DNA of 64,000 nt from Eukaryota sp. TZLM1-RC (Eukaryota; Protista; Metamonada: BaSk clade): NCBI GenBank assembly GCA_040285825.1, contig JAUPSS010000004.1, positions 1,902,550 through 1,966,549 of the forward strand, read 5' to 3'. Positions 6,030-59,179 of the stretch are shown one piece after another; the stretch's first letter is position 1, and every line of letters begins with the position of its first letter. Made by a program: the position numbers and the translations under genes. The notes beneath the pieces are model-generated. The model did not search any database. It was not told where the DNA came from and worked only from the letters and a program-made list of their open reading frames with translations.

Positions 6030-6532
6030 TTGTGTGCCACTAATGAAGCATTTGTAACAAAAATGAGGTTGTATTTGAATATCCCTATTAATCAATTATT
6101 ATCAAAAAAATGTATTTGTTCGAATTCACCTCAACTCACTCTGCGCCATGCTCTGAATTGTTCTCAATTGATAACTTATCGTTCTTCATTACATGATGCT
6201 GTTAGAGACACTGTTTTCAATATGGCACAAACTGCAAGAATATCGTGTATCAAAGAGCCTCTGCTGATGGAAACACTGTCATTGAATAATTTTGGCTCTG
6301 ATGATAGAGGTGATGTATACTGTGATTGGATTGAGAACTCTGAAGCTGTTGTTGACTTTGTCTCATGTAATGTTGCCATTAATAATAGATTACCTCGGTT
6401 TTTCAATAGAATAAGAGAAGCTTTAGCTAGACAGCAAGCAGATCAAGATTTTGTTGAGGAAATCTTGGTTCAATGATAGTCGTCTCATTAGTTATGAGTT
6501 AATTTAATTAAGTGTGCAAATTCAATAAATAC
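6030..6532 (+). mobile_element. 3' end of RLE non-LTR retrotransposon with a 270-bp internal deletion
   Basis: Near-identical to 16075-16851, including the 3'UTR ending AATAAATAC; lacks the segment equivalent to 16426-16695. Confidence 0.85.
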
Positions 6533-6544
6533 ATATTATAATAT

Positions 6545-7430: not shown

Positions 7431-7821
7431 TGTAGTATCTTTATAGGTACTCATTGAAAGGTGTGGAGATGTGTAGTTTGTGCTACTACTGAAAGCCTAT
7501 TAGGAAGGTTGGAGAGGTCAAGATATTGCTGAAGTATGGACCTTTGAATGTTGAGATGAAAAACCAAGAAAAAGTTTGATAAAGATGAATTTTGGATGAT
7601 GAAACTAATGGCAAACCATTTGAAACCCAATTACCAACATCAGTGACACAACATGCTGCTTTCAAGAGAGAAACACAACAGAAACCTGATGTCTCGATAG
7701 ATGTACCTTTAATAAACTGTTTAAACAATCTTTATTTCAATATAGCAAATAGAAGAAAAGTTGTCGACATCGAAACCAAATTTTGAAAATAACCATCAAT
7801 CATTTCTGATTGTCTGACACT

Positions 7822-9813: not shown

Positions 9814-9924
9814 TAGTTGTTTGTATCCATGTATTGCCTTCGGGCGCTGTGATCCTGAAAAGGAAACCGTATAAGGGAATGGAGGAATGCTACTTGATGT
9901 ATGCATTTCCGATGAAATTCACAG
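9814..9924 (+). ncRNA. Putative omega/Fanzor RNA scaffold (may start within the ORF 3' end)
   Basis: GCC-TTCG-GGC (9836-9845), TCCT-GAAA-AGGA (9853-9864), GGAATGC-TAC...GTA-T-GCATTTCC (9884-9910), long-range CTGTGA(9847-9852)/TCACAG(9919-9924) and TCCAT(9826-9830)/ATGGA(9879-9883), directly after a Fanzor stop. Confidence 0.7.
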
Positions 9925-9963
9925 AATGATCATTTTTTTCATTTTTCATTTCATTTTTCCCCA

Positions 9964-12650: not shown

Positions 12651-13073
12651 CACTGTACAGATTCACCATCTCAAGTAGTGTAATTTTGATTAAATGTTTT
12701 TGTAATGCTGATCATGTTGAGATTACTGGTTAAGTAGCTCTGCCACTCAGTGGATTTCGTTGAAATTGAAATATGTTGTTTAAAATCAAATCAAATATTG
12801 TTTCAAGTCATTATCTACAGTAATTAACTCTGAATATGATAATAGTAATAAAGACTTGTTTATTAAATTTAATACTTAACATAAAACACTTGTAACAAAT
12901 TTTTTTAATGAATTTAATTAAACTGGTAACAAATATGAATAATTTATTGAAGTAGGATTTCCTCTACAGAATCTTTTGCGTTATTATCTCTTGGTCGCTT
13001 TTATAAAGGAAAACATTCAGTCAATCCTTCTTGGCTGATTTCGGAAAAAAGAAAAAATACAAGTTCTCTGTTT

Positions 13074-13820
13074 ATGTGGATGCTTTTTCGTTGTTTGCTG
13101 TGGCCAAACAATTTGCCCAATCATTTAACTTGTAAATGTGGTAAACCTCTTTTGTTTACTCATCTTTTGAACTGTAAACATTTCATTACATTTAGAAGCA
13201 AAGTGCATAATGACGTCAGGGACCACAATTATGTAATGTGCAAATCATATCGAGTAGATTCCTTTTTAGAGCCTTTGTTATCAAAATTAATTCTTGATGA
13301 TCCCAATATTGATAGTACCCGTTACAACAGAGCTTTTATGGGTCTGACAAGAGGTGATCTGGTTGTTCCCGGTTTAAATAATAGTTTTACTATTTTAGAC
13401 GCCATGTCTATTGACCCTTGTAATTCCTCTCACGAACATCTCATTAACTCGGATGTAAATAATCCTCTTCTTGCAGGCGAAAAATATAAAATTGCTAAAT
13501 ATGCGAAACCCATCTCCTCGATTAATGCAAATTCTCATGCTCAATATAATTTATGTCCCTTTGTTTTTTCTTTGCTTGGATCTTTGGGTAAGGCTGCTAT
13601 GACTTTCCTTAAGGATTTTGTTGTAGTTGTAAAGGAAAGAACTGGAAGAATTTTAATCGTGTTTACTGGCAAAACAGGATTGTATTTTCTATTTTTAAGG
13701 GAATGGTAAAACTGATTTCTTATTCACTGTCTTCTTTTGGGAAATTTTCTGAATCTTTGGCAATTAATTGTTTTGATGTAGGGGAGGGGGGCAGGTTTTG
13801 AGGATGTGGAGTTTTAATTG
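13074..13820 (+). mobile_element. 3' fragment of a second RLE non-LTR retrotransposon family (Zn motif plus restriction-like endonuclease)
   Basis: CKCG...HLLNC, RSKVHNDVRD, RGDL, DAMSID, EKYKIAKY, PFVFSLLGSLG. Confidence 0.8.
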
Positions 13821-15127: not shown

Positions 15128-15944
15128 AAAGTGTGAAAATGTTCTCTGATTGTTGGAATTTTATTTGCAGGAAACAATCCTTGCTTCTCACAAAATCCAT
15201 AGAACATGAGGCTGATTCATTGTGTTATTATGTCAATAATGCAGTAGCATTAAATTCAGATGGATTATCATCTGGAAGATTAATTTTACTTCCGGATTTT
15301 TATTTTCCGTCTTTGTAACAACAAATCCTTTTTTTCACAAATTCTAAAATTAAATTGACGAGTTTCAATGTTTCTAAAATCAGTTCTAATTTTAACAATA
15401 TTTTCAAACACTTCTAACATTAATTATTTTAATTAATAATTATAATTAAAAATTTTTCATTCATTTGTTTATTAAATTTGCAATTCAATAAATGATTCAG
15501 ATTGATAAGCTGACCACAACGACAAATCAAATCATTTGGCACACTGCATGGTCACAGAAAACACCTCATCCTTAGGGCAGTTGTCCATTGATGATCATTC
15601 AACAGTAAGCCATAAACATTTGGAATTTGAAAAAAATAAAACAACTTGAGCTACTTTTCTTAAGATCAATTGAGAAGATGGCAAAAAACGGGATTTTCTT
15701 CCTTAGCCAAGCTAAGACGTACAGTGAAAATCAAGTTTTCAAAAACTTTCAGTATTTTTTCTGCAATTTGGCGTATACAAATCTTAAAGAAATCAAACTT
15801 CTGGGTGGAATTTCTTAAATATCGCTAGGAAAGCATTTGGACCATATTTGAAGAGAGAAGGATCCGATTTCGTTCTGCAAAGACACCAAATTAGCACTAA
15901 CACAACATTCTATTAAATGTTGGTATTCAGGAAAACGTTAATAA

Positions 15945-16851
15945 CGTTTAATAATATTTGCAGCTCGGCTGTTTTAAATCAAGATCTTCACTCATTGTTA
16001 TTGGAAAAGGGTGTTTGTGAAAACAAGGCGTCAGATTCTTCACTTTTTGTAACCATTGTACCACGAAGATTTGGATTGTGTGCCACTAATGAAGCATTTG
16101 TAACAAAAATGAGATTATATTTGAACATCCCCATTAACCAATTATTATCAAAAGAAAAATGTATTTGTTCGAATTCACCTCAACTCACTTTGCGCCATGC
16201 TCTAAATTGCTCTAAATTGATAACTTATCGTTCTTCATTACATGATGCTGTTAGAGACACTGTTTTCAATATGGCACAAACTGCAAGGATATCGTGTATC
16301 AAAGAGCCCCTGCTGAAGGAAACACTTTCTCTGAATAATTTTGGTTCTGATGATAGAGGTGATGAATACTGTGATTGGATTGATAATTCTGAAGCTATTG
16401 TTGACTTTGTCTCATGTAATGTTGCAAACGATACTTTGGTTCACAGAAGTAAACTTAATCCTGTGGCTGCTCTGGATTTTAAAGCAAAAGAAAAACACAG
16501 AAAATATGATAAAGAAATTGAAGATGCAAATGTCGATAGAAATACACAGCTGGTTTTTATTGCTTTTCCATTTTCGATAAATGGAAGATTATCAATTGAA
16601 GCAGAAACTTTTTTGGATGACTTCCAAAAAATGGTGAAAGAAAAAACAATGAAAAGATTTGATATTTTTTTATGGCGATCACGGATTCAATTTGCCATTA
16701 TTAATAGATTACCGCGGTTTTTCAATCGAATTAGAGAAGCTTTAGCTAGACAGCAAGCAAATCAAGATTTTGTAGAGGAAATCTTGGTTCAATGATAGTC
16801 GTCCCATTGGTTATGAGTTAATTTAATTAAGTGTGCAAATTCAATAAATAC
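15945..16851 (+). mobile_element. 5'-truncated RLE non-LTR retrotransposon (Zn motif, RLE, 3'UTR)
   Basis: CICS...HALNC, HDAVRD, RGD, AIVDF, KEKHRKY, PFSINGRL; shared 3'UTR with 6476-6532. Confidence 0.85.
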
Positions 16852-17140
16852 GATATCTGGAAAACGTTTCAAAAAATCAAAAATGAAATTTTTGCCTCCA
16901 CCAACAAACGCAGCTTCACACAAATAATTTGATTTGTGGAAATCTAAGCCTCCCAATTCTGTGCTACAAAAAATATGACTACGTAAATAAGAAGAATCAA
17001 TATCAAGCAAATTAGCCAAAAACTTTGTTCTTAATTCGTTAAAAATTCTGCAAAATTCAAGAGATATTGACAGTGTGGTTGAACGCAGGACATGAGAAAA
17101 TTTACCTGAATAACAAATCCTGAGAAAGAAGAACACTTAT
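16852..17140 (-). mobile_element. Inverted RT-thumb fragment of a related non-LTR family
   Basis: LRICYSGKFSHVLRS...FNELRTKFLANLL...GGLDF...AFVGG is homologous to 3255-4256. Confidence 0.75.
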
Positions 17141-17627: not shown

Positions 17628-20081
17628 TTAACCCAAACAATCCCAATTTGCAACTGATTCAACTGCAAAAGGGTCTTGATCACAGCTGTCAAAAACATTA
17701 CTGAAAAAAGAATTTGCTCTCGATTTGGTGAAAGACATACTTGGATTTTTATTAAATATAGAGGTCAGGACATCTGCTTTAAAAGGCACTGGATTCATCA
17801 GTTTGACTGAGTCCTGAATTAAAGAAACTTTTATAATTTTATCCAACTCATTGATAATTGCCAAAGAAGGACTAGAATTGACTTCTAGAATAAAAGGGCT
17901 GAGATCAGATGTCAACAAAATGTCATAACCAAAAATTTCAAAGCATTTCGAAGGAGGAAATGTACTCAACCTTTTTTGGTAGCCATTGAGACATTTTTTT
18001 GACTTTAATATTGACTTCTTGATTTTTTGCCAAATTTCAACTTCAAAATCAATATCATTTTCCCTGCAATACCTTCTAAATGCTGATAAGGAACATTTGT
18101 TTGACTTGGCCAATTCACTTTCAGAGCACAGATCATCCTTTATTGGAGGTTTGATCATGTTTAAAAAGGGATTATTATGACTGCATTGAATAGAAGAATT
18201 CGTTAGATGAATGAAGTGGTTATCAAGATCCTTGGCTGAAATACTATAATCAAGACAGCAAAATCGGCAGAAACCTTGATTGTATAAATAAATTTTAAAA
18301 GGACACGCAGTAACTAAAACATAAAGTCTTAAATCAAATTTTCGAGAAGAGATCAGAAATGGATCATGAATGTATTTTTGAATTGTAATTGGTGACGTAA
18401 CATTAAACGAGAGATCCTTATTTGATTGATCAAGACAAATAATTTTAAGATTTCTTCCTCTTGAAGAACAATTTGTTTTAATAATCCAAAAAGATCCCTC
18501 TTCCTCACAATTGTTGGATTGAATATAATCATTGAATAACGTAAACTGGTTTGGCATTTCAAACGTTAATGGTATTAAATTGCAAGTATTATTGGTCTGT
18601 AAAAGTCTGCTCAAAGAGTCTTTGGAGGTCAAGGGAAAAGAGATTGGTAATTTTGAAATGGTCTGAAATCTGAAAAAATATCTGAAATTATAGACATCAG
18701 ACGGATTAAATGACTTGAAAGGAAAAACATTGCTGAATTTAGGTTTCCCATAAAGAAAAACAACAGAAAAACGAGCCCAAAAAGACAAGAAATTAATGTC
18801 ATGTACAGTACCTTCATCATCATCCGAATCAAAACACTTGAACTTGGGAACTTCATTATTTAATTCATCAAATAAGATTGGACTAGTTACGTTAGATAGA
18901 CCCATAACTATAGTACTTAAAGATTCCTCAGTAAAAGAAGAAGCAAATGACCGAATTTTAACTGAATCCTTCTTAGGGAACTGCAAAGTAAAAGAAAAGT
19001 CATTTAAATTCTTTGTAGGTCTAATGAAAATGGAAGAAATTGAAGGAAAATAGGAGAAATAATCAAACTGATGAGCATTTGATTGAGAAACTGATTGAAA
19101 CTCATCATCAGAATAACAGTTTTCATCAGAACCCGCATCTTTTTGAACTTTTCCATCAGAATCCGATTGACTTTCATTATCCTGAGAAGTTTCTGAATAA
19201 TGACCGTCTAAACAAGGTTCAAAATCTGCATCTTTTTGAACTTTTCCATCAGAATCCGATTGACTTTCATTATCCTGAGAAGTTTCTGAATAATGACCGT
19301 CTAAACAAGGTTCAAAATCTGCATCTTTTTGAACTTTTCCATCAGAATCCGATTGACTTTCATTATCCTGAAAAATTTCTGAATAATGACCGTCTAAACA
19401 AGGTTCAAAATCTGCATCTTTTTGAACTTTTCCATCAGAATCATCTTGAACCGGCAAACCTGAAATATCATTGAGAAATAAATCTTGAAACTCAAAATCA
19501 CCATCTGAGTCCACATGGAGGTCAATAATATCAACATTTTTGGTCCTTTCTGATTCGGACACGGATAAAAAATCACTTTCCTCCTCAGAAAAATCAAAAA
19601 CCATTGAATTACTTGGTACCAAGTCATGATCCCTAGAACTTTTAATAAATGCACTACTCAATGATACACTTTCGGCTGCACCTTCGGCAGACAACAGAAG
19701 CGTGGGATAATGTGGATCTCTAACAACTTTGGTTGGGGTGCTTGAGGAGGATGAGGAGATAGTTGGCTTTGATGGTTTAGTTTTCTTCTTCCTAATTGGA
19801 ACTTTGGGTAATGAAGGTTTTGGTTTCTTTGCAACAGTGAGGTTGCTTTGGGCAGTGATGGGACGCAATGGTTGTTCTCTTGATGAGTGATTTGAACGAC
19901 TTGTTGTTTTTCTTGTGGCTTTTTTGGATGTGGTAAGGGTTGTATTTGAAGTGGAACAAGGTTTATGTTTAAAGACAGCAGAACGGACAGCCGAATACCG
20001 CAAGGATGACAACAAGCCTGAGGGTATCATTTGAGGGACATTGGTGGATTGTTTGTTGATGACAGATTCAAAACAATTCAT
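17628..20081 (-). CDS. Tubulin-tyrosine ligase-like (TTLL) polyglutamylase
   Basis: WIIKTNCSSRGR, IQKYIHDPFLI, RKFDLRLYVLVT, HLTNSSIQ, CFEIFGYDILL, LEVNSSPSL. Confidence 0.92.
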   Translation of the reverse strand: MNCFESVINKQSTNVPQMIPSGLLSSLRYSAVRSAVFKHKPCSTSNTTLTTSKKATRKTTSRSNHSSREQPLRPITAQSNLTVAKKPKPSLPKVPIRKKKTKPSKPTISSSSSSTPTKVVRDPHYPTLLLSAEGAAESVSLSSAFIKSSRDHDLVPSNSMVFDFSEEESDFLSVSESERTKNVDIIDLHVDSDGDFEFQDLFLNDISGLPVQDDSDGKVQKDADFEPCLDGHYSEIFQDNESQSDSDGKVQKDADFEPCLDGHYSETSQDNESQSDSDGKVQKDADFEPCLDGHYSETSQDNESQSDSDGKVQKDAGSDENCYSDDEFQSVSQSNAHQFDYFSYFPSISSIFIRPTKNLNDFSFTLQFPKKDSVKIRSFASSFTEESLSTIVMGLSNVTSPILFDELNNEVPKFKCFDSDDDEGTVHDINFLSFWARFSVVFLYGKPKFSNVFPFKSFNPSDVYNFRYFFRFQTISKLPISFPLTSKDSLSRLLQTNNTCNLIPLTFEMPNQFTLFNDYIQSNNCEEEGSFWIIKTNCSSRGRNLKIICLDQSNKDLSFNVTSPITIQKYIHDPFLISSRKFDLRLYVLVTACPFKIYLYNQGFCRFCCLDYSISAKDLDNHFIHLTNSSIQCSHNNPFLNMIKPPIKDDLCSESELAKSNKCSLSAFRRYCRENDIDFEVEIWQKIKKSILKSKKCLNGYQKRLSTFPPSKCFEIFGYDILLTSDLSPFILEVNSSPSLAIINELDKIIKVSLIQDSVKLMNPVPFKADVLTSIFNKNPSMSFTKSRANSFFSNVFDSCDQDPFAVESVANWDCLG
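19135..19442. repeat. 93-bp coding tandem repeat (about 3.3 copies) inside the TTLL gene
   Basis: Unit starts at 19135, 19228, 19321 and 19414; encodes DSDGKVQKDADFEPCLDGHYSETSQDNESQS. Confidence 0.95.
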
Positions 20082-21651: not shown

Positions 21652-21722
21652 TGTTCAATATGTTGCTTGTGAAATGATGATAATGTTGTGTTAAAGATGA
21701 GATTGAGATTTGCGATTAAATA

Positions 21723-21995
21723 CTGTGAATTTCACTTATCATGCATTCCCCTGTGAAATTCACTCCTGTTTTCAACTCCCTCAGTGTCTACTCACAGGCT
21801 GTAAGAGACATGTAGCATCATTTGACAAAGACAATCATGATCTTCATCAATGGGCTACCTCACTTAAATACACCTACTGCTTTCACAGAACAAAGCCTCG
21901 CGACTTGATGTATCTAAGTGGATCTACCAAATGCTACTAGGGCATTTGTAGATCGGTCTCAAAAGTTTTTGTTTCTGTATGCTTAGGTTCCCTAT
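21723..21995 (-). ncRNA. Putative omega-RNA of Fanzor family 2, copy A
   Basis: Non-coding region conserved with 55933-56241; stacked hairpins including AAGTC-GCGA-GGCTT and CTGT-GAAA-GCAG within a 14-bp helix. Confidence 0.7.
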
Positions 21996-22912
21996 TCATC
22001 TTCTTAACAGAGCTTCTGGGCAAATGTATCTTTCCGGCCACAATTCCGCTTTCTTCTTAATTTGAATATTTTTTGCAGCGGAAATATCTCTGTCATATAC
22101 CATTTGACACTCAGTACAAATACGCATCTGCCATGAGCCTGCTTGAATATTCTCGGCCATGCAACAACTTGACATTTTGCTTGTATTAAATTCACTGGTT
22201 GACAAGTGCTTCACGTCCTTTTGATAACACAACCATTTTCTGAAAGCCCTTGCTGATCCATATCGATTGACTTTTCGGCAATGAGAAGGGAAATTAGCAG
22301 AACCCACAGCAAGATAGAGTTTTTCAGGATGTCCAGCCAGCCTTTGAAATTTGTTGAGACTCTCTCTGAACCGTCTCTCTTTTCGTCTGCGGTTATCAAA
22401 TTTAATTATTTTCCATTTCTGGCGATTACTTTCCAAATACACTTTCCTCCTGACCAAATTCCAATGGTTCAAATATTGGTTGAAATTTTGAACGGAATAT
22501 TGGTTGGGAGAGTGTTTACTGGGTGAAGGTTTTGTCATGTATCTCCTGCCAGTTGGACAAGGGATAACTCCACATTGATTATCATTTAAGAAGTAACCAC
22601 ATAATCTTGATTGGCCAAGATCAACGCCGATAAGGGGGCTTTCAGGTAAAATTTCGACTGGATGTCTACGTCTTCGACGGGGCATTTTTTTAGTACCCTT
22701 CAACTGTGTTTCTCTGGTTTTGTTGGCATTAGGGTCACTTTTCATTTCATTTTTTGATCTTCTTTTCTTTTTCGGTGGTTCATCCAGCTCATCTGTGTTT
22801 TCTGAGTCATTATTTTTACCTTCAAAGGTCAAAAGCAGTTCATTACCATTAGTTTTCAATAAAATTTTGTTAAATCTATTTTTCAAACTTTTTCTGTTGA
22901 TATTGAATTTTT
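21996..22912 (-). pseudogene. Fanzor family-2 copy A: open C-terminal half, 5'-truncated
   Basis: LIGVDLGQ, LAVGSANF, STSEFNTSKMSSCC, CTEC, YDRDISAAKNI; identity with copy B starts near 22912, and the sequence upstream is a CCT6 fragment. Confidence 0.85.
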
Positions 22913-22914
22913 GC

Positions 22915-23127
22915 CTATATATATTTATTTCTATGCAATACAAATCCAACTATCCTTGTTGTTGAGCTTTCATTGACAAGCTTCTTCCTAAAGTTAACAG
23001 AATGATCATAAGGTAACAAACCAGCAGCTATAATTTCATCACACAACAATAATTGAGAAGAAATAACAGCAGATGAACGAATCATATTTCTTAAAACACA
23101 ATAGTTGTCCCAAATTCCAAGTTCCAA
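22915..23127 (-). pseudogene. CCT6: C-terminal fragment of chaperonin CCT-zeta
   Basis: [35 protein letters not shown] matches the CCT6 C-terminus ([33 protein letters not shown]). Confidence 0.75.
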
Positions 23128-23160: not shown

Positions 23161-24119
23161 AAAAGGGATTTGTATTCAACCTAAAATTCAACCACAGTAA
23201 TACTCAATGTCTCTGTTCTCTGGTGTATGTTAAACTTCTGCGTCGTCTCCACTATTTAGTCAGCGGTTTCACCCTTTCTATGATGAATGCCGCGTTACAA
23301 TAGTGGTAGATTTCATCCCAAATGCATGGTGTTTTTCCGTGCTATTGGTTATCAGACGCACTTTTCTCAAGAAGAGCGATTCCTGTTGTTCTTCTGCTTC
23401 GTGGTCTTTTACAATACTAACCTCAGCTTTGTACTCTCTGATTTTGTGTGTACTAACAACATATTGTTTTGTCACTCACAACAATCTACATTTCTCATAC
23501 AGATTCGTATTGTCAGCAACATTGTGACACTACTGTTCATCATAAATTTTATTGGATTGTTTCTCTCATTTATAGTACCTCGCAAGTATATGTCACAGAT
23601 GATGTTTTCAATTTTATTACAGTGCTTGCGTATAATTTCAAGTGTTCATGTGCAGTTCAAATATTGTGCTTTGAAGTTGCGATATCATTGCTAATTATGT
23701 TGTTTAATAGTGTTGTTTTTGCACTATTTGAATCAAAGTTCAGGGGTGTTAATTCCTAACTAATCTCACAATTAACATCAATCAAAGCAATCAATTTTGC
23801 TTAAGGAATTTCGTCTTTCATATAATCTTTTTTAGGTAAAAAATATGGTTTCATATGAGCTAAAAGAACACAAAAACTATTTTGGAATAAACTGCCATGA
23901 TTTCGAGAGGCTTCTGGAACAACTTCATACTATTCCATCAAGTTCGTTGGCAGTATTCCAAAGAAAGCAGTTGTGAGTGAAGGAATTGAAACAAAGGACA
24001 ATATTGGATTGAAAATAGCATTTGTTGTACTGTGGACAATTAGTCTAGTATAGATTTCATTAGTGACGGCCTTTATAAGGGCCAGTGAAATTTAAATAAA
24101 TATTTTTTATCTCATCAGT

Positions 24120-25343
24120 TAATGACAATAAGACTGTCGAATACCTATCGGCAAATGGTAATCGCTCCACGACCTTGGTATGTGCAAGTGGTGTTCTTGC
24201 TCTAAATGTGAATAGCTTGGCCACTCAAGTGTTTTTAAGGATCGAACTCCAGATCATTCCTGGTACCAATAATTTTTTGATCGGAAGAGACTTATTACAA
24301 ACCTTGGGGCCGCACGGCGCACGGTTTTAATATTAATTTGGATCGCGAACACCGCACCATCTTAACTGCTGAATGTGAGTTTGGTAATAGAATTTGTCAA
24401 TCATTCAGATTCATAGAACAATTGAGTAATAAATCAGACTTAGGTAATGATTTTGGGCATTCCACATTTAGACATGAGTTAGATGAGTTGGGCTGTAGAA
24501 TATGCCTGGATGACATTAGGGACGAGGAACGCCTAGTCGTGCTATTCGAAAAATATAGAAATGTATTTAGTGGGCTACCTCACCCGGATGGAATTGATTG
24601 TCAGCCGATGACCATTGCATTTTATGACGAAAGTAAGGTCGTCAAAAAAAACCTCGAAGATTAAACCCAGAAAAACAACGGGTAGCCGAGGAAATTTTTA
24701 ACGAATTGATCCGTAATGGATTTGCTGTGCCCGCAAAGTCTCAATTCAGTAGTCCCATCTGTCTTGTGATTTACCCTGATCACAGGAAACCACGATTAAC
24801 TGGCGATTTTAGTGGTATTGGTGGAGTAAATGATTTAACTAAACCTGTAGAGGCAAATTTGCCCAGGATTAGCGACATTTTAGAGTTTCTAAGTAAAGCT
24901 AATTATATAGCAACTCTAGATTAACCTACGGCATGTTGCCAGCTCAAAATTGCAGAAGAGGATATTGATAAAACTACCGTATCAATTCCCGGGATGTCGA
25001 TCAGTTTTAAAAGGGCTTGTTTTGGTTTGAAGAACGTTCCTGCAGTCTTCCAAAACATGATGATGGAAATTTTTGATTCCGAAGGTGTATTTATATATAT
25101 CAATGATATTATATAGTAGCTTCATCCTTGGATGAATTTTTATCAAGAGTAGGTACGGTACTAGAACGCGCCAAACGTTTTAGAGTTAACTTGGGCCTAC
25201 CCAAGTGTAGTTTTACCACTTGCAAACATGAAACAAAAATTCTAGGTAGTATTTCTGCAAACAAAACCCGTTATATAGATGAGTATAGAATCGAGGGACT
25301 GATCAACCTACCCAAACCCAGGACATTACCTGAGGTCAGGAGT
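24120..25343 (+). mobile_element. Degenerate Ty3/gypsy pol fragment (protease end plus RT)
   Basis: LIGRDLL, SPICLVIYPDHRKPRLTGDF, PRISDILEFL, FGLKNVPAVFQ, YINDI, LPKPRTLPEVRS; stops and frameshifts. Confidence 0.85.
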
Positions 25344-25422: not shown

Positions 25423-28400
25423 TGTGAGAAATTTGACACCTCACAGAGTTGAAGAACAATTACCCTATTTGAATTTATTAAATATGTTGCCTTAGGTTGC
25501 AAAAGTGGTTGAGATAAAGATAATTTATTTTCTATTCATATTATAAAAGCCTAAGGGCGCCAACACTGCTTCTTCCCCTTTTCAAAGATAATAAGCTTGA
25601 TAAATATGAACCAAACTATAAACAAATAACTAAGTAACTACAAATAATCTAAACTAATCTAAACTAAGAATTAGCATCACTTCCTAATTCTAGTACTGCG
25701 TCTAGGCCTCTTGTGAGGCGTAGAGTTATTGGAGGTACTTTTCCGTTGACTATTAGTACGTTTTCCAATTTTCTTGTTATTCCTACTGAACAACTTGTAA
25801 GCTTCTGAATGTTTAACTGAATGGAGAGGCCCTTCTGTTGTCTCACCGCCAAACCATTGAACAGTACAGAAACTACCTGGGTCAGAATTATATTCTGAGA
25901 GGATTTTCTCCATAACATGTTTCTCACCATCGCCTGCTGCGACTGCCTTAAGAAATTCGATATCCTGTGGATTATCTGCGTTATAGATTTTACAATCTTT
26001 CTTAGCAGCCTTTAATTCGCAGCCAGTGATAAGATTCTTTAATAATAAAATGGAGTTGGAAGGAAGGTCTATTACTAAAAAGGGTCCGTTCCAAGATCCA
26101 TCTAATTTATTATTCTGTTTGATTTTACGGAGGACATAGTCACCAATATTAAATACTATAGAACGCGAATTAGTATTGTCTACTGAAATCGAAGTATTTA
26201 ATGATTGATGACGCTCTGCTTCTTCCCTTTTTCTTGCAGACGAGTATTTTTTATTTTAATATCGTCTAATAAAAATATATTGGAATCAAATTTTGATAAG
26301 TTTCCTAATATGTTTGCAGGGTCCGATCTTGGACTAATCGAAGATCCGAACATTAGTTCGTAAGGTGTAAAACCTGTCTTTCTGCTTTTAGTGGAATTTA
26401 TTAATAGTTGGGATATGGGATATAAGTAGACCAATTTCCGTAATCATTAAAATCTATTAATAATTTCCTCAAGCATTGTAGAACGTCTATATGTTTTCGT
26501 TCTACGAGTTCATTACTTTCAGAGTAGTGGGGTATTGATTTACTCGTCTCAATAGCTAATCTATTACACACTATCTTAAAAGTCTCATTGGCGAACTCGG
26601 GACCATTATCACTATGAATTAACATAGGAATGCCAAAAATTGCGCAAACGTTCCAAATCAAAGCGTCTGCGGTCTCTAAGGCATTGAGTTCGTTCAGAGG
26701 GACTAAAATTGAATATCCAGTAAAAGATTCTACAAATACTAATAAGTATTTATTACCATCAATATCAGTATTCAGAGGTCCAATTGTGTCGACATTTAAT
26801 CTAGCAAAAGGACGATCTGCCCAAAGGAAACCTGTGGAAGGTGTTTTCTATTCTTTTAACTGGTGCCGTTCTTTGACAAGTTGGGCATCTTTTGATGTGG
26901 TTTATGAGGTCCTTTCTCTTATTAGGCCAGAAAAAGTCGCTTTTGGACAGTTTATGTAGACTGTCGTTTTTGCTGGGGTGGCCTGATTGAACCAATCCAT
27001 GTATTAATAGTAGAGCCTGTTTTTTGAGGTTTTTTGGAATTAAAGTTTTATTTTTATTGTTTTTCCAAATTTGAAAATTTTCAACTAGAATTGCATTTTC
27101 AAATAAAGGGTCATTGTTATTTTTGGCTATTTGCTGTTCACATCTTATTTTAGAGAACCAAGAAGAAAAAATAGCTAAGTCCTGGTGTCTACTTAGGGTT
27201 GAAATTGATGGGATGTCTTTGAAGTCCGAATCAGAATCATCGGCTATTGGAGGTATCTCGTAATTCGAAAGTAAAGTATCTGGTATATTTATACTACATA
27301 TAGAAGGAGTTTCCTCATTTTGATCTAAATCAATATTCCTCGATAGCATATCTGCCCAGTGGTTGTCTTCACCTGGTTCATGGACTATATCAAAGTCGAA
27401 TTCAGATAGTATCGGCAGCCATCTCTTTACAATTCTGTCTTTCTCTGGGGCTGTGGCCAGGAATGCATTATTTTTGTGATCAGTGAAAATTGTTAGATGT
27501 CTAGTCGAAAGGTAGCTTTCTAAACAACTTTCAGTTAAAATCAGAAGAATTGCATATAATTCTTTCTGTAAAGTGGACCATTTTCTTTGTGTTTCTGTAA
27601 GTAATCTACTATAGAACGACAAAAGTTTCACTTTTCTCTTATTCAGCGGGGTTCCTGCAGGAGAGTATGGTTCAATTTCTTGCCAAATGACACCTCCTAC
27701 TGCTACATCTGATGCATCAGTACTTATTAATACGCGCTTGCCCGGAGCTGGTAATTCAAGGGACATGTGGTTAATTATTAAATAGTTTATTTGTTTAAAA
27801 TAATCATCATGCTCGTTGGTCCATTTTATTATTCTTGGTTTTCCCTTTATTAACTCATTGATTGGAGCTATTAATTCGAAAATACCTGGAAGCCAATCTC
27901 TAATATAATTGATGGATCCTACCAATGAGCGAACTTCCTTCACTGATTTTGGTCTAGGGATTCTCATCAAGGCTTCTATCTTTTTCTTACTAATAAATCT
28001 AGTTTTATCCTGGAAGGTGCTTCCTAAGATGTCAATAGGGTGTTTGGAAGTTACGAATTCACATTTACGTAAACCTATATTTACACGTTTATTTCTGGCG
28101 CATTGGAGGGCCTTCTGTAATCTCTTATAGAATTCATCGAAAGTCGTTCCAACTATTATAATACCATCGATATATATATAAAAACGCCATCAATTTGGAA
28201 TATTTCCATCATTACATTTTGAAAAACTGCTGGGATAATCTTTAATCCGAAGCAAGCTCTTTTAAACATAATTCACCTTCCAGGGATTGAGATTGATGTT
28301 TTCTCAATGTCCTTCTCAGCTACATTCATCTGCCAGAAAGCTTTTGGTAAATCAAACGTGGCAATGTAATCTGTTCTACTTAAAAACTCTAAAATATCAC

Positions 28401-29330
28401 TAATCCTAGGTAGATTAGGCTCTACTGAAATCTTGTGGGCATTGACTCCAGCTTTACGACTAAAGTCTCCCGTTAACCTGGGTTTCTTGTCGTCAGGATA
28501 TATAACTAAGACAATAGGAGAGCTGAATTTATAATTAGATTCAACTACGTAGCCCATTTCAATCAGTTCATCAAATATTTTGTTTGCTATTTCCATTTTG
28601 CTGGGATTTGATCGTCTAGCATGTTTATGTACTATAGCATTCTCGTCTCTAAAGGGGATTGTTAGAGGTTTTCAATCGATTCCTTTTCTGTTTGGAGTTT
28701 CACTAAAAACATCGCTGAAAATTCCTAGTAGACTCGTTAATTTCAATTTATTGTTATCATCATCTAATTTTATCTCACAACCAGATCTAGTTAACTGCTC
28801 CTCAAATTCGGAAGGACTCGATGATTGGTTATCTAAGGTCCCAATCGAATGTTGAGCGATTCTTGTGTTGAATTCAGATTCTGCATTTAACAAAGTGCGG
28901 TGTTCTTTGTCTAATCTAATGAAAAGACCATCATCCGTCTGAAGCCCAAGTGTTTTTAACATCTCTATCCAAAAAAAAATGTCTGTCTATTAATAATTTG
29001 TTCGAACCCGGGATTATGGGAAGAGTATGTCTAAAATGTACCTGGTGCACAATGCTTCCTACGTTGAACGACAGAATACCATTTGCACTCCCTAGCGATT
29101 TACTTGATACGTTATTGGCTGGTAAGAACTCAATTGTATCATCTCTATTAATTGACATGTTGCATTTGTTAGCCAAATCTTCTGTTATAACCGAACAAAA
29201 CGCTGACGAATCAATAGTTGCAATCATTTTTATATTATTTATTAAAATCTCCAATCTTAGAAATGCAGAACGCTGGGATCTGATGTGGTTCTCACTAACA
29301 GTAGAATTTATACCAAAAATACTATTGATA
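25423..29330 (-). mobile_element. Degenerate Ty3/gypsy LTR retrotransposon (PR-RT-RNaseH-IN-chromo-like) with PPT and probable 3' LTR
   Basis: IDSSA protease, FDLPKAFWQ, YIDG, TDASD RNase H, HSDNGPEF integrase, WNGPF, chromo-like EKIL...TVQW; PPT GAAAAGGGGAAGAAGCAG (25566-25583) then TGTTGG at 25565; LTR end at 25423 is tentative. Confidence 0.9.
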
Positions 29331-29779
29331 TTAGAGCTGGGTTTGTAGAATTGTAGAGGATTAAGTAAGAATTGTTGAGCTGTTGGGGAGTTGTTGACTG
29401 GGTTTCCGAAATCGGCAATTGATTGATTATGATTGATTGCGTTGATTTGTTTCCGATTGGGAAAAATTCCAGTATTTCTGACCCTGTTGCTGAAATTTTA
29501 TTTTGATGTTTTTGAGTTTGTTGTTTCTTGGGGTTTACATTTCTTCCTTTAGTTTCAATCAAAAATTATTGGAAATGCGATTTTTGACCAACAAACATCA
29601 AAGCTTAAGTGTAAAAAACAACAAAAAACACTGAACGACAAATTTGCATTGAGAATACAATATTAAATACCGAGAACAGGAAGATTTTGCCAAAGAAACC
29701 ATTGAAACCGAGTATGGTCAAAAAAATTGAGCCAAGTTTGAGTGGCTTCAACCCTGATCCATTGATTCAATTCAAATCA

Positions 29780-30300
29780 ATGACCCCAAATTAAAATCTT
29801 CCCACTGTTATGTGCTTTGATCTTGAAACCTATCAGGATGGTCATCTTTACCAAAATCGTGATGGCCAATTTCTCCCTCCTGACGAGATTATCAACAAAA
29901 AGAGAAAAGAGGGTGCAAATTTTTTGAAAAAGAAAACTGATAAGTCAATGGGTGAGTGGATTTTTTGATTAAAAGGTGTTTTCAATTTCGATTTTTGATG
30001 GTAAGTTTGATCACCATAATTTCTTTTTGGAGAGTAAATATTCACTTATATTGAGAATGAGTCCTCAAATAAGATTACCAGACATTGATATGGGTGTTCA
30101 GGCAGAAATATTCTCTGACAAAAAAACCTTGCTTCGTAGGTTCCTAAACCTTATTGGTGATCATCAACCCCATTGGTTTTTTAATCACAATTTAATGCAG
30201 TTTGATTTACAGGTTTTAAAAAGAAGATTAAATAATTTTGATTTACCATTTCCCACTGTTCGAGATGATTCAACAATTGATGTACTCAGTAAACTTTCAC
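29780..30300 (+). pseudogene. Family B DNA polymerase 3'-5' exonuclease fragment
   Basis: ExoI-like VMCFDLETY (from 29807) and ExoII-like LLRRFLNLIGDHQPHWFFNHNLMQFDLQVLKRR, separated by a stop. Confidence 0.65.
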
Positions 30301-30588
30301 TAAGACGGAGAGTAGTTGTCATCAGGGAAAATGGCTTTTTTCTTTTAGTTATTTTGGTTTTTGCCAAAAAATTTATTAAAATACCCTACGGACATGGATG
30401 AGGCATTTTGGCATATAAAATGATAACTGAAAAGAAAATCAAACTTCATCAGGAATTTTCTCATATATTGCCAATGGATTGTTTAGCTACTTCTCCTCAG
30501 ACAAAATTCGATTCAATATGGGCTTCATGATTGCATCCTTTGTCTGAAACTTTTCGTGCTGTTTCAGAAAGACAAATTTATTTTTTCA

Positions 30589-31590
30589 TCTTATAAAACC
30601 ATTCGAGCAACCGTCTACTCAATGGTTAAACATTCAGATGTGATACTCAAATTGAGAGAAACTGCTGACAAATTTCTACAGTTACGTATTCACACCACTT
30701 GTTGCTTATAGCTGTATTTACAGTCTCGTTTTGAACGTAATTTTATACCAACACGAATATCTGCCCAGTTATATGAATCATTAATGGCAGGAATCCGTTA
30801 TATTTCAGCTGAGTATTATGGGCAAAAAATAGTGAAACCAAAAAGTGCATTTTCACAGGATTTTGAAGACTTTATTTATGGTGAAGGAGTTTATACTTTA
30901 AGAACTACCTTTGAGCGACAAAAGTTAAACAAAACATTGAGTTATCTTGATCACTTAAGACACAAACCTGAACAGTTTTCACGATTTCCATCTGATGGCT
31001 TCAGTAGACCGACTGAGTCCATGGTCCCAGTGATGTTTGCCAATTTTGAGAATAATTTGAAATTAAATTATGAAAAACATATTACTCGATTTATTAATGT
31101 TTATTTTGACAAACCAGATGTGGAAAATGTGTTAGCAGAAATGCACAAGCTGGGTGGATACTCCAAGCCATTATCTACAATTGTTTCACTTTATAGATTT
31201 AGGCTTCGTCAATTCAATAACTTGTTTTTGGTTGATGACAGAGGTGGCTTGGATTCTTTGTTACAATATCCTGAAAATATTTCAGACCTTCTGAATGATG
31301 AATTTTTCGATTTATGTGAACAATATGATATAAGAATTGATGAACTGAGAGACATATTTGAAGGTCTTATTGAGCCATTAACCTGCCAAAATGAAAATTT
31401 GGGCAGTGACGAGAATTTAGTTGATAACATATTTCCAGTGGACATACATTTTCTTGCAGACGCTGTTGAAAAAGATCCTCAAATATTCCTAAAACCAGCA
31501 ATTACAATTGCCCAATATTTCTCAAGTAGAGAGAAAAACCTTATCATATTTGTCCTGTTTCAACAACATTATCCACATAGATGGATTTAA
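30589..31590 (+). pseudogene. Fanzor family-3 N-terminal half (WED/REC region), premature stop, RuvC missing
   Basis: In-frame upstream extension YKTIRATVYSMVKHSDVILKLRE...CL*LYL (TAG at 30709), FENNLKLNYEKHITRFIN and VEKDPQIFL resemble Fanzor N-terminal motifs as recalled. Confidence 0.6.
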
Positions 31591-52570: not shown

Positions 52571-53033
52571 AAACGAGCTTGAAAGGGCTCTGAATTATCT
52601 GGATATGCTGATGGTGAGAAGGATATCTATTGTATTTACAGTACTGACTCTAATCCCCCTAATAATCCCCCTACCTTAGTTTTTGCTTTCTACTAGTCTA
52701 ATCACCACTCTTTCTCATCTCATGCCACTGTGCTTCCAGCTATTGTCCAAAAAAAACTGTTATTCACTAAAATTGTTCAATAAAATTTACTGTGGTTTTC
52801 ACTTTGGTTGCATTTTGGTGTATTTTTTTTCACCAACCAGATCTTGCACCAACGTCTGGTTTCTCCCTACGACATCTATGGGCCTTAGTTTTCAACTTTT
52901 ACTTAATGGTGTAGACATAAAACACTGAAAACCTAGAACACACAGTTCAGGATCTTTGCATAATAACGTGCCAATAATGTTCAAATAAACAACAAAAAAT
53001 ATCAACTATTTATTTACAAAATAACTTACTTTA

Positions 53034-53408
53034 TTACAGATTGTCTAAATTTACAGAGATATTTTCAACAGTATTGAAAAGGGCTTCCAGCTCTCGTTCG
53101 TCTAGCTCCATGTTAACATTTGCCTTCGAAATGCCATTAGAAAGCTTCAAACCAAGTAAAACGCTAGGGACAGAAGTGTTTTTGTTTGATGAATGAGTAA
53201 CAATTTTGTTTAACTTCCAATCAGAGCTTTCAAGGAAAGTTTTCCTGGTATTATTACCGGATGAGCGAAGAGCATGAGGTGTGTACATGGACTGTACCGG
53301 TTTAGGCGTCGGTGGTGGAACAGCATAAGTTGCAGTTTGCGGAGGGCCAGTAGTGGGGACATGAACTGGGGGAGTAATAGAACCAAGTTGAAAGATTACA
53401 GGGGAGTC
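53034..53408 (-). CDS. COMM-domain protein (last exon; 5' exon unresolved)
   Basis: LESSDWKLNKIVTHSS...PSVLLGLKL...MELDERELEALFNTVENI fits the COMM domain pattern; frame open up to a pyrimidine-rich TTTAG acceptor at 53409. Confidence 0.55.
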   Translation of the reverse strand, partial: DSPVIFQLGSITPPVHVPTTGPPQTATYAVPPPTPKPVQSMYTPHALRSSGNNTRKTFLESSDWKLNKIVTHSSNKNTSVPSVLLGLKLSNGISKANVNMELDERELEALFNTVENISVNLDNL

Positions 53409-53619
53409 CTAAAGCTCGAAAAAGAAGGTAAGTGAGGGAAATAAGAACCTAGTTTATGAAGTGAGGGGAAAATGTGGGAATAGTGAAAACCTCCCGAAAC
53501 CAAGATGAGGGTTGAAAAACTCCCAGAACAGGCAACAAGAAGTCGAAAATGGGGTCACAAGTGTATAATTGATAGATGAGCTGTTTATTCTCACTACATT
53601 ACAGACATCCACTCTGAGT

Positions 53620-55932
53620 CACGTGTATTCACTCGGTCTTGTGCACTTAACTCGCTGCTGACCCTTGCAGCGGTGCAACAAATTCGGACTGACCTTCCTT
53701 TGGTCACCGAGATTTGTCATGAAGCTTCTTTAGTGCTTCAATCTTTTCGTCTAGTTTATCCGTTGGCATCTAGAGCCTTAGTGAAACAGGATGTATGGTA
53801 TCCTGTTATAACCATCATCACCACTGGATTTTTTCCAAAGCCATCCACCTCTAAAGGCCAACGCCAATTACTCCATATCTTTTACAGTGGATTTCTTCCT
53901 GAATGCCCACAAGACAGGTCTCTTGTTTCTTCATGGGAAAATTCTTTCGTGCCTTATAGAAATTCATTCAATCTCTTTCTCAATGGCTGCAGTCTCAGAA
54001 TTGTAATCTTACCAGTAGAAAAAGGCTTTCCCCTCACTCTGCTTGTCGGGCTCGTCAATTGGCGTCCAACGTGAAGACAATTTTACCTAAAATTTGTCAA
54101 TCCTGGACAAAAAACTTTATTCGTGCTCATTGTTGAGCTCTAGATAAAACAAATGTCTGAGCCAATTATCTTTTCTCTCTTTTACCAGATGAACCCTTAG
54201 CCTAATCCGAAGAAGCAGTTGTTGATTCTGTTCTAGAACACTACATCAATTTCAATCTGAATTATTCAAGAGAAAGATTCTTTTTATTAAATGTATGTAA
54301 GTTTATCTTGAATCTCCTTCAAAGATTTCCTGCCACTGCCTCTTTATCGTCTTCACATGATAAAATCACCTTTTCATCAAATGAAATTGGTGAGCTTTTT
54401 CTCATTAATCTTAAAATTTCACAATAATTACTCACCTTCTTTTCTCATATGCATTGCTGGAAGAAATTTAGGATAATACCTGTAGCTTCTCATAAAGGTT
54501 CTCAAATTCTTGAGATTTCTTCACATGTTTTCCAATATGTGAAAAAATTTCCACTTATTGAAGGATCATCTTTCAAAACAAAGTTTATCAAAAATACATG
54601 TCTGAAACGAATTTTCGAATAATGCCCTCACCAAAAATTCAAAATCAACAGAAAAAGTTAGAAAAATAGATTTAAAAAATTTTTATTAAAAGCTAATGGT
54701 AATGAACTGCTTTTGACCTTTGAAGGTTAGAATGATGACTCAGAGAACACAGATGAGCTGGATGAACCACCGAAAAAGAAAAGAAGATCAAAAAATGAAA
54801 TGAAAAGTGACCCTGATGATGCCGTTAGGCAGAAATACCAAAGAAGTGAAGAGAGAAAAGAGCTTTATTAATAGAAATACTTGTTTTTGAACAAGTGCCA
54901 CGTCATCATGTAAATTCCTCAACTGTCTAGCAAGTTAGTTAATCAGTAACAACAACACTACTTCTTCCCATTTTCTTTCAACAGTTTCGTGAACCATTTA
55001 GCATAATGAAGAAAGGGGATTTGTGAGATACTGAGGCACGTGGCGTAAATGATTGACTTCGTGCTTAACTTTTGAGGGACAATCACGAGCTTGATGACCT
55101 TTCTGGTGACATTTGAAACGTGTCCCTTCAGTCAAATTGCGCTGCATGAACCACCAAAGAAGAGAAAAAGATCAAAAAAGGAATGAAAAGTGACCCTAAT
55201 GCCAACAAAACCAAAGAAACACAGGTGAAGGGCACTAAACAAATGCCCCGTCGAAGACGCAGACAACCAGTCGAAGTTTTACCTGAAAAACCCCTCATTG
55301 CCGTTGATCTGGGCCAATCTAGATTATGTGGTTACTTCTGAAATAATTATCAATGTGGAGTGATCCCTTGTCCAACTGGCAGAAGATACATGACAAAACC
55401 TTCACCCAGTAAACACACTCCCAACCGATATTCCGTTCAAAATTTCAACCAATACTTGAACCATTGGAATTTGGTCAGGAGGAAAGTGTACTTGGAAAGT
55501 AATCGCCAGAAATGGAAAATAATTAAATTTGATAACCGCAGACGAAAAGAGAGACGGTTCTGAGAGAGCCTCAACAAATTTCAAAGGCTGGCTGGACATC
55601 CTGAAAAACTCTATCTTGCCGTGGGTTCTGCTAATTTCCCTTCTCATTGCCGAAAAGTCAATCGATATGGATCAGCAAAAGCTTTTAGAAAATGGTTGTG
55701 TTATTTAAAGGACGTGAAGCACTTGTCAACCAGTGAATTGAATACAAGCAAACAGTCAAGTTGTTGCATGGCCGAGAATATTCCAGCAGGATCATGGCAG
55801 ATGCATATTTGTACTGAGTGTCAAATAGTATATGACAGAGATATTTCCGCTGCAAAAGATATTCAAATTAAGAAGAAAGCGGAATTGTGGCCGGAAAGGT
55901 ACAGTTGCCCAGAAGCTTTGTTAAGGAGATGA
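53620..55932 (+). pseudogene. Fanzor family-2 copy B: near full length, degenerate, interrupted by an LTR fragment
   Basis: N-term TRSCALNSLLTLAAVQQIRTDL...VYPLASRALVKQDVW parallels family-1 PVSLPRFFASRAAQAIEAQL...EYPHLSCWLAHRQFW; the C-half closely matches 21996-22912 (IAVDLGQ, SELNTS, RDISAAKD); internal stops. Confidence 0.8.
54814..55145 (-). mobile_element. LTR retrotransposon remnant: gag zinc knuckle, PPT and 144-bp LTR
   Basis: Minus strand: FKCHQKGHQARDCP, GAAAGAAAATGGGAAGAAGTAG PPT, then TGTTGTTG (54957)...CATCATCA (54814) containing AATAAA. Confidence 0.7.
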
Positions 55933-56241
55933 ATAGGGAACCTGAGCATACAGAAACAATTTTTTAAAAAAAAATTTAAATTTTATTTTGAGTTTTATAT
56001 TTTATTTTTGATTTTTTTGAAAATCTTTTGAGACCGATCTACAAAAAGCTTAGTAGCATTTGGTAGATCCACTTAGATACATCAAGTCGCGAGGCTTTGT
56101 TCTGTGAAAGCAGTAGGTGTATTTAAGTGAGGCGCATTGATGAAGATCATGATTGTCTTTGTCAAATGACGCTACATGTCTCTTACAGCCTGTAAGTAGA
56201 CATTGAGAAAGTTGAAAACAGGAGTGAATTTCACAGGGGAA
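55933..56241 (+). ncRNA. Putative omega-RNA of Fanzor family 2, copy B
   Basis: Homologous to 21746-21995 except for an AT-rich insert near 55960-56024; same hairpins. Confidence 0.65.
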
Positions 56242-59127: not shown

Positions 59128-59179
59128 CCAAATTAACTGAGAATTTCACAAAATTGAATAAAAATCGTCAACAGTCAGC

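What the first reader, a model, noticed from the sequence alone, without database searches (positions are those of the whole stretch)
21723..21995. Family-2 omega-RNA defined by two copies, with GNRA-capped junction and a structure-preserving substitution
Seen: about 250 nt downstream of the stop are conserved between copy A (minus) and copy B (55933-56241), and identity ends abruptly after TTTCACAGGGGAA. Helices: GATCTACAAATGC/GCATTTGGTAGATC; CACTTAGATACATC/GGTGTATTTAAGTG enclosing AAGTC-GCGA-GGCTT and CTGT-GAAA-GCAG; TTGATGAAGAT/GTCTTTGTCAA; TGTCT-CTTACA/TGTGAG-T-AGACA, where copy B has TGTAAG (a G-U pair becomes A-U). CTGTGAAA can alternatively pair with the distal TTTCACAG, as in family 1. 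Inference: a large scaffold with candidate guides TGCATGATAAGTGAA (A) and GCGTATGTGATTCTT (B), or a boundary 23 nt further out in A.
Basis: partly seen in the sequence, partly recalled or inferred. Interest (0 to 1): 0.78.

Follow-up and report, generated by a model that had tools for sequence, protein, structure and literature searches.

The report
Fanzor guide RNA inside transposon end
A strongly folding 275-base stretch behind a Fanzor nuclease gene forms the right end of a multicopy protist jumping gene and likely encodes its guide-RNA scaffold; the element ends 23 bases further out than first proposed, which moves the predicted guide, and it looks like a new, unusually long member of a known system.

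Summary
The helices are real: z -5.3, against -3.3 for the best of 100 background windows. The gene upstream is a Fanzor1. The main boundary proposed is wrong. In public contigs, 7 of 9 3'-side loose ends fall at 21720-21724 and none at 21745-6. The end is the outer TTCACAG followed by TA, and it matches a left terminal repeat at 52788 in 21 of 27 bases. This is a TA-flanked inverted-repeat element like Spu-1. The predicted guide of copy A is 21720-21706. No RNA data exist here. Unusual points: a tail longer than the 75-150 nt of solved Fanzor1 RNAs, a predicted alternative fold shared with the window's other Fanzor family, and captured host-gene fragments. Three look-ups found no earlier scan note on this DNA. 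Verdict: new member of a known kind.

The parts
21721..21995 (-). Structured non-coding tail of copy A from the stop codon to the TA; likely omega-RNA precursor (scaffold)
   Evidence: function inferred
21723..21747 (-). Right terminal inverted repeat (25 nt), ending in TTCACAG
   Evidence: loose ends at 21720-21724; 21/27 match to 52788 counting the TA
21721..21722 (-). TA, putative target-site duplication; predicted last two bases of the scaffold
   Evidence: TA follows in 6 of 7 outer-end contigs (one of them with a G-to-A change at the last repeat base)
21706..21720 (-). Predicted 15-nt guide of copy A (flank after the TA), just upstream of a polycystin/mucolipin-like channel gene starting at 21651
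   Evidence: position; length by analogy with PMC10432273 and PMC10711439; for the neighbour
21751..21763 (-). Inner direct repeat of the end motif, 28 nt inside; pairs with the outer repeat as an 11-bp helix; 2 low-depth contigs stop here
21785..21810 (-). Helix H4 (11 bp, one bulge)
21812..21858 (-). Helix H3 (long hairpin with G-U pairs)
21861..21920 (-). Helix H2 (14 bp) enclosing the GCGA hairpin (21906-21893) and the GAAA hairpin (21888-21877); 21888-21882 is also complementary to the last 7 bases of the terminal repeat
21921..21954 (-). Helix H1
21996..22913 (-). 3' half of a Fanzor1 gene (residues 205-509 of P0001, 97% identical); 5' half absent, so no whole nuclease
22921..23125 (-). 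Captured piece containing a TCP-1/CCT chaperonin C-terminal fragment; found with 0 differences in a separate 1349-nt contig that runs on with other sequence
   Evidence: PF00118, E 1.1e-5, below the curated cut-off
23170..23199 (-). Candidate left end of copy A with TA (first 10 bases identical to the left end of copy B; 19/30 overall)
52788..52814 (+). TA plus left terminal inverted repeat of copy B
   Evidence: best non-self match in the window, 21/27; null maximum 19 in 3000 simulated 1.5-kb regions
53034..53288 (-). 84-aa COMM-domain ORF, likely cargo of the element
53595..55932 (+). Full-length but broken Fanzor1 gene of copy B (lost start codon, in-frame stops, frameshifts, 320-nt insertion at 54818-55137 with a 65-nt duplication)
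55933..56241 (+). Tail of copy B; lacks 23 of 25 bases of the right terminal repeat
9834..9924 (+). Comparator: predicted omega-RNA of the window's other Fanzor family (tetraloop hairpin, then CTGTGA pairing with the terminal TCACAG)
   Evidence: z -3.3

Best explanation
This is the right end of a multicopy, TA-flanked inverted-repeat transposon carrying a Fanzor1 gene, and the folded tail likely encodes the omega-RNA scaffold, predicted to end at the outer TTCACAG plus TA with the guide read from the flank beyond it. Shown: the family boundary, the TA, matching left ends, the Fanzor1 protein family and the folding potential. Inferred by analogy with SpuFz1: the tail is transcribed through the end, a full-length Fanzor from another copy binds it, and the complex cuts empty alleles next to a TAM ending in TA (TTA predicted from two left flanks). 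Repair from the occupied allele would then preserve the element after cut-and-paste excision by a transposase supplied in trans. Copy A cannot make a whole nuclease and would act as a guide donor; copy B is decayed and has lost its end. More speculative: the mature RNA starts near the GCGA hairpin (about 21906), and 21888-21882 closes a terminal stem with the last 7 repeat bases, as predicted for family 1.
For: Boundary: of 9 contigs with a 3'-side loose end, 7 leave the reference at 21720-21724, 2 at 21751, none at 21745-6; TA follows in 6 of the 7 (X1 and X2 are one sample, so one may be counted twice). Terminal repeat: 21/27 match at 52788, 807 bases upstream of copy B's ORF in the right orientation; null maximum 19 in 3000 regions and 20 in 60 whole-window simulations. 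A second left end with TA lies 284 bases upstream of copy A's truncated gene. The COMM ORF between B's left end and its Fanzor has 9 cluster members besides the window's own in Eukaryota sp. TZLM1-RC; 2 of the 9 locus tags shown lie two tags from a family Fanzor fragment (005395/005397, 004755/004753). Protein: 123 member sequences in 14 clusters, a 651-aa full-length member P0022 with D444, E587, D622 and TS..C..C-RD motif; profile hits SpuFz1 E 1.3e-13 and PpFz1 2.4e-11 against Fanzor2 1.3e-5; the top 7 Foldseek hits are Fanzor1 structures. RNA-like folding: sense strand more stable than antisense (A -81.8 vs -64.7 kcal/mol, z -5.3 vs -4.5; B z -4.7 vs -2.7); 8 G-U among 74 pairs. Among variants common in the contigs, 5 of 6 are unpaired where 34% of sites are (weak, 3 of them are private to copy A in one linker). 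Literature passages: TIR and TSD form part of Fanzor1 scaffolds and RNAs run about 15 nt beyond the TSD (PMC10711439); Spu-1 has 33-bp TIRs and TA TSDs (PMC3627910); TA-ending TAMs are common (PMC10530073).
Against: No transcript, RNP or cleavage data. No compensatory double change: 21 rare variants split 11 breaking, 4 compatible, 6 unpaired, as random decay would give, and one common variant (21943) breaks a pair. The antisense strand of A also folds well (z -4.5). In the full-length fold the terminal helix stops 4 bases short of the guide and the family-1-like closure costs 13.7 kcal/mol; the 186-nt form has z only -1.6 and its closure depends on the exact 5' start. The two left ends agree in only 19 of 30 bases. 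No empty allele was seen; the flanks had no contig cover. The protein has DLG for DPG, TNG for TDG and Ser at the first zinc-finger Cys, so activity is not assured. The model is low confidence (pLDDT 52; TM-scores about 0.2). No transposase was found among the window ORFs scanned.
Confidence: 0.75

Rival explanations
1. One reading: the scaffold ends after GGGGAA and the guides are the 15 bases that follow in A and B.
For: A and B diverge exactly there.
Against: 0 of 9 3'-side loose ends fall at 21745-6 and 7 run through the next 23 bases. Those bases are the terminal repeat matching the left end at 52788. A guide made of the element's own constant end would not be locus-specific. No outer repeat occurs downstream of B in the window.
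Confidence: 0.03
2. Two registers: the inner TTTCACAG is a second usable right end, so some copies or some processed RNAs close their terminal stem on the inner repeat and take the guide from there.
For: 2 of 9 loose-ended contigs stop exactly at 21751. The inner repeat offers 8 pairs to 21888-21881 and dominates the predicted fold for 5' starts 21904-21896 without flank (P 0.67-0.95). B's shortened tail folds this way.
Against: Both contigs are 151 nt, depth about 2, with 5-7 other differences, and their flank consensus is mixed, so a TA could not be read. B keeps 5 bases beyond the inner repeat, so it is no clean inner-end copy. The inner repeat is explained as a subterminal transposase site, weakly echoed 28 nt inside B's left end.
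Confidence: 0.12
3. Only the last 70-110 bases (H4, linker, terminal 11-bp helix, AG-TA) form the omega-RNA; H1-H3 are 3' UTR, processing or dispensable structure.
For: Solved Fanzor1 RNAs are 75-150 nt with a first stem-loop, then one or more stems next to the guide (PMC11423790 section 5). H4 and the terminal helix fold on their own with P 0.94-1.00.
Against: Does not explain the parallel with family 1, where a tetraloop hairpin precedes CTGTGA (chance of the complement in the tail 0.016 and 0.026, post hoc). The 21-nt linker is much longer than SpuFz1's 6 nt (PMC10432273). This rival keeps the same end and guide as the best explanation.
Confidence: 0.3
4. The hairpins are DNA-level features (subterminal repeats, a captured fold-back piece) and no functional RNA is made.
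For: The terminal helix follows automatically from two near-palindromic repeats. The antisense strand folds nearly as well in A. No covariation.
Against: Five further helices with G-U pairs on the sense strand; strand asymmetry is clear in B; the four eukaryotic Fanzors tested in PMC10530073 all co-purified with RNA from this position.
Confidence: 0.1

Closest known systems
Spu-1 / SpuFz1 of Spizellomyces punctatus (PMC10432273, PMC3627910; passages read)
   Same: Single Fanzor1 ORF of similar size (633 vs 651 aa), about 30-bp TIRs, TA duplication, no transposase in cis, many partial copies, RNA locus between stop codon and right end, guide donors without a whole ORF.
   Different: Tail of 275 nt against an 80-nt region; imperfect TIRs (21/27); captured host-gene fragments; DLG and TNG motif variants; the single protein does not find SpuFz1 by phmmer, only the profile does.
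GtFz1 (150-nt RNA) and PpFz1 (75-nt RNA) (PMC11423790; passages and section 5 read)
   Same: First stem-loop followed by a variable number of stems before the guide; Foldseek and profile hits.
   Different: Predicted scaffold of about 186 or 245-275 nt is longer than any of the three solved Fanzor1 RNAs; the first hairpin has 5 predicted pairs, not 7.
ApmFz2 omega-RNA (PMC11832414; passages read)
   Same: Long scaffold (206 nt) with long peripheral stems and a long-range contact to the bases next to the guide.
   Different: Fanzor2 in an IS607 element with a pseudoknot and GGG TAM; the protein here groups with Fanzor1.
Mariner-type Fanzor1 elements such as PUl-4 (PMC3627910; passages read)
   Same: Fanzor-only elements with TIRs and TA duplications.
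   Different: No Mariner transposase or matching TIR family was identified here.

Membership tests
Fanzor1 | RuvC D-E-D triad with the alternative glutamate just before the zinc finger, and RD motif | tested here: met
   D444, E587, T590-S591, R621-D622 in P0022; same residues in copy A's ORF
Fanzor1 | C4 zinc finger in canonical spacing, DPG and TDG signatures | tested here: inconclusive
   Ser at the first Cys position with C596, C597, C612, C615 present; DLG and TNG instead; closer relatives P0034 and P0035 keep DPG; PF07282 hit E 3.4e-6 above cut-off
Fanzor1 | Large REC region, 600-800 aa, closer to Fanzor1 than to Fanzor2/TnpB | tested here: met
   651 aa; profile and fold searches rank Fanzor1 structures first (model low confidence); no tree was built
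Fanzor omega-RNA | Structured non-coding region between ORF and right end, overlapping TIR and TSD | tested here: met
Fanzor omega-RNA | Expressed RNA extending about 15 nt beyond the end and bound by the protein | not testable with these tools
   no RNA holder listed
Fanzor omega-RNA | Structure kept by covariation across copies or families | tested here: inconclusive
   no double-sided change among the variants listed; copies too alike or decayed; no covariance model built
Fanzor omega-RNA | Terminal double-stranded stem abutting the guide (Fanzor1 type) | tested here: inconclusive
   two competing stems predicted; which forms depends on the 5' start
Fanzor system | TAM-dependent RNA-guided DNA cleavage | not testable with these tools
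   TTA predicted from two left flanks only
Spu-1-like / Tc1-mariner-type element | Terminal inverted repeats and TA duplication | tested here: met
Tc1/mariner | DD(E/D) transposase in cis, or TIRs identical to an autonomous mariner | tested here: inconclusive
   none among 19 + 51 window ORFs scanned with Pfam (50 of the 70 short ORFs listed were given); no genome to search

The most novel reading that the evidence does not exclude
The long tail is a self-silencing guide precursor. In the full transcript, helix H2, the GAAA hairpin and the inner/outer repeat helix lock both halves of the functional terminal stem. Only removal of the 5' leader releases the family-1-like fold, which can close on either of two transposon-end repeats 28 nt apart and so give two guide registers from one locus.
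Probability: 0.15. Interest if true: 0.7.

Novelty: new member of a known kind. Interest (0 to 1): 0.36.

Why it matters
It extends Fanzor1 systems to a protist lineage for which two full-text searches found no report (Fanzor with Skoliomonas; Fanzor with metamonad; supplements not seen). With over 100 gene copies in one named assembly, the family is a good natural test bed for how TIR, TSD and guide scaffold constrain each other, and for whether Fanzor cutting maintains cut-and-paste elements. It gives a concrete candidate nuclease with a predicted short TAM. If the leader-controlled switch were true it would be a new layer of control on RNA-guided nucleases.

Tried and rejected
No whole genome is held, so copies could not be collected. 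No RNA holder listed among 5 runs. Rfam: 0 matches at gathering score in the window; one chance snoRNA match, E 0.32, in 21680-22060. Exact DNA patterns found nothing in metagenome contigs or prokaryote genomes. Protein-based locus searches confirmed nothing in metagenome or viral contigs; the alignment was too diverse to search with. So no DNA of distant families was available and no covariance model was built. The flanks of copy A had no contig cover and no joint showed an empty site. No candidate guide had a second match above 13 of 15 in the window. A 1323-aa relative was checked for a transposase and is an XPG fusion. The sigma-70 and terminator scan was uninformative. Rejected: IS607/Fanzor2 (no GG ends; searches favour Fanzor1), Helitron end (TIRs and TA on both sides), and reading 22913 as a family left end (contigs run on as in copy B). 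No left end was found for family 1.

Full report
Context. The window is eukaryotic and gene-dense, with Pfam hits to tubulin-tyrosine ligase, Fritz, a polycystin-type channel and an iron-hydrogenase-like protein. It holds several Fanzor copies of two families. The finding lies behind the stop codon of copy A (minus strand, stop at 21996-21998). The closest named proteins come from Eukaryota sp. TZLM1-RC: 14 clusters with 123 member sequences at 71-99% identity, with more distant families in GEM-RC1 and TZLM3-RCL. No whole genome was available.

Observation. The region folds far better than shuffles (z -4.0 and -4.4) and better than all 100 background windows of 245 nt. Identity between A and B ends after GGGGAA. 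But the tail is no more conserved than the ORF (204/214 against 711/756), so two copies say nothing about selection. Of 14 A-B differences only 2 are pair-compatible changes; 6 are unpaired and 6 break or delete pairs of A's fold, though B refolds both affected helices.

The real boundary. Contigs of four coded DNA runs (at most 2 samples, 1 study) were laid on 21690-21962; 24 were laid, from three of the runs. Nine have a loose end on the 3' side: 2 at 21720, 3 at 21721, 1 at 21722, 1 at 21724 and 2 at 21751; none at 21745-6. So the family runs through the 23 bases that B lacks and ends at the outer TTCACAG (21723). TA follows in 6 of the 7 outer-end contigs and in copy A. Read inward, this end matches 52788-52814 in 21 of 27 bases, the best non-self match in the window; simulated regions reached at most 19 (3000 regions of 1.5 kb) or 20 (60 whole windows). 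That site begins with TA and lies 807 bases upstream of copy B's ORF, which covers the whole protein but is broken. An 84-aa COMM-domain ORF sits between them. This looked like a host gene and a problem for the left end, but it is multicopy and uniformly short in the named assembly, and 2 of the 9 locus tags shown are two tags from a family Fanzor fragment, which fits cargo. Copy A has its own candidate left end with TA at 23199, sharing the first 10 bases with B's. It encloses a piece with a chaperonin fragment and only the 3' half of the Fanzor gene. Both left flanks end in TTA. Family 1 ends in the same TGAAATTCACAG motif (19/27 to A's end), followed by AA rather than TA.

Consequences for the guides. 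The A candidate is the terminal repeat itself. The B candidate follows loss of the repeat and abuts unrelated sequence with a zinc-knuckle-like frame on the other strand (no Pfam hit). By analogy with published Fanzor1 RNAs, where TIR and TSD are part of the scaffold and the RNA extends about 15 nt past the TSD (PMC10711439, passages and section 28; PMC10432273, passages), the guide of copy A would be 21720-21706 and the TAM would end in TA.

Protein. The full-length member P0022 has 651 aa. In a 10-sequence alignment it keeps D444, E587, T590-S591, C597, C612, C615 and R621-D622, fitting the motif of PMC3627910 (passages) except for Ser at the first Cys; it has DLG and TNG where DPG and TDG are usual. 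A profile finds SpuFz1 (E 1.3e-13) and PpFz1 (2.4e-11) ahead of Fanzor2 (1.3e-5). A weak model (pLDDT 52) retrieves seven Fanzor1 structures first. It is best filed as Fanzor1; no tree was built.

RNA fold. With the correct end, an 11-bp helix forms between the inner repeat and the outer repeat (P 0.99). It follows from two near-palindromic DNA repeats, so it may be a by-product. The sense strand is more stable than the antisense in both copies and 8 of 74 pairs are G-U, which leans towards RNA. Variants from the contigs give no covariation: 21 rare ones behave as random decay, and 5 of 6 common ones are unpaired, one breaking H1 (one search left 41 of its variant rows unshown, and 2 of the 27 scored come from that call). 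Family 1's 93-nt end folds as a UUCG hairpin followed by CTGTGA closing on the terminal TCACAG (z -3.3). The family-2 tail has the same layout hidden inside H2: a GCGA hairpin, then CTGTGAA, complementary to the last 7 repeat bases (chance 0.016, post hoc). In the full tail this closure costs 13.7 kcal/mol. If the RNA starts at 21906 it becomes the minimum-energy fold (P 0.58), but that form has z only -1.6, and shifting the start by a few bases favours the inner repeat or the terminal hairpin. This is a hypothesis, not a result.

Mechanism. Shown: TIR element with TA ends, Fanzor1 family, strong folding. Inferred: transcription through the right end gives scaffold plus flank-derived guide; a full-length Fanzor from another copy cuts TA-containing empty alleles; repair from the occupied allele preserves the element, which moves by a transposase in trans (none found in the window). 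The homing role is taken from the TnpB literature (abstract of 10.1101/2023.11.20.567912 in the listing) and is raised for Fanzors only as a possibility in PMC10432273.

Comparison and novelty. The arrangement matches Spu-1 closely (PMC3627910, PMC10432273). Solved Fanzor1 RNAs are 75, 90 and 150 nt (PMC11423790 section 5), and the Fanzor2 scaffold of ApmFz2 spans -205 to 0 (PMC11832414 passages), so a 186-275-nt scaffold is long for Fanzor1 but not unprecedented among Fanzors. TA-ending TAMs are known (PMC10530073 passages). Searches for Fanzor with Skoliomonas (a genus name recalled for the relatives' label) or with metamonad found no paper. PMC11316075 has no Fanzor or TnpB in its main text and does not contain the label TZLM1-RC (passages). 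No supplements of any paper were seen, and they may list these proteins. Three look-ups of earlier scan notes gave one unrelated note and two blanks. Verdict: a new member of a known kind with a corrected boundary; interest 0.36.

Noticed in passing
window 7810-9926 (+): Intact 667-aa ORF of a second Fanzor family (25% identical to family 2) with an N-terminal zinc knuckle; shares the terminal motif but is followed by AA; no left end found.
   Followed up: partly
window 5661-6029 (+) and 59141-60444 (-): Broken relatives of family 1; the first is interrupted at about 6030 by a non-LTR retroelement fragment.
   Followed up: no
window 53034-53288 (-) and 22921-23125 (-): Host-gene fragments (COMM domain, chaperonin C-terminus) carried inside Fanzor elements, Pack-transposon style; the COMM ORF is multicopy and uniformly about 84 aa.
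   Followed up: partly
window 2666-4277, 6030-6537, 12911-13709, 15917-16856: Several fragments of a non-LTR retroelement (RVT_1 hit at 2846-3250, restriction-like C-terminal region), in both orientations.
   Followed up: no
window 24847-25100 and 28172-28425: 254-nt inverted repeat pair, 70% complementary, around a broken Gypsy-type pol gene (RT, RNase H, integrase, protease at 25677-29497).
   Followed up: no
window 43874-43922 and 44528-44576: 49-nt inverted repeats enclosing about 600 nt with a short ORF without Pfam hit; MITE-like.
   Followed up: no
window 3700-3959 and 4871-5127: Long inverted repeat arms (186 and 69 nt, about 80% complementary) about 1 kb apart.
   Followed up: no
window 56296-56610 (-): Frame with a zinc-knuckle-like motif abutting the point where copy B lost its right end; probably another element's remnant.
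   Followed up: partly
window 29973-30398 (+) and 30712-31590 (+): Family-B DNA polymerase exonuclease fragment, followed by a 292-aa frame without Pfam hit that may be the N-terminal part of another Fanzor (by eye only).
   Followed up: no
window 19126-19449: Three 93-nt tandem repeats inside the tubulin-tyrosine-ligase-family gene.
   Followed up: no
P0060 (1323 aa, TZLM3-RCL): Predicted fusion of an XPG-family nuclease with a Fanzor C-terminal domain; may be a gene-model artefact.
   Followed up: partly
window 21751 (X1 records 4 and 5): Two low-depth contigs leave the element exactly at the inner repeat; possible alternative right end.
   Followed up: partly
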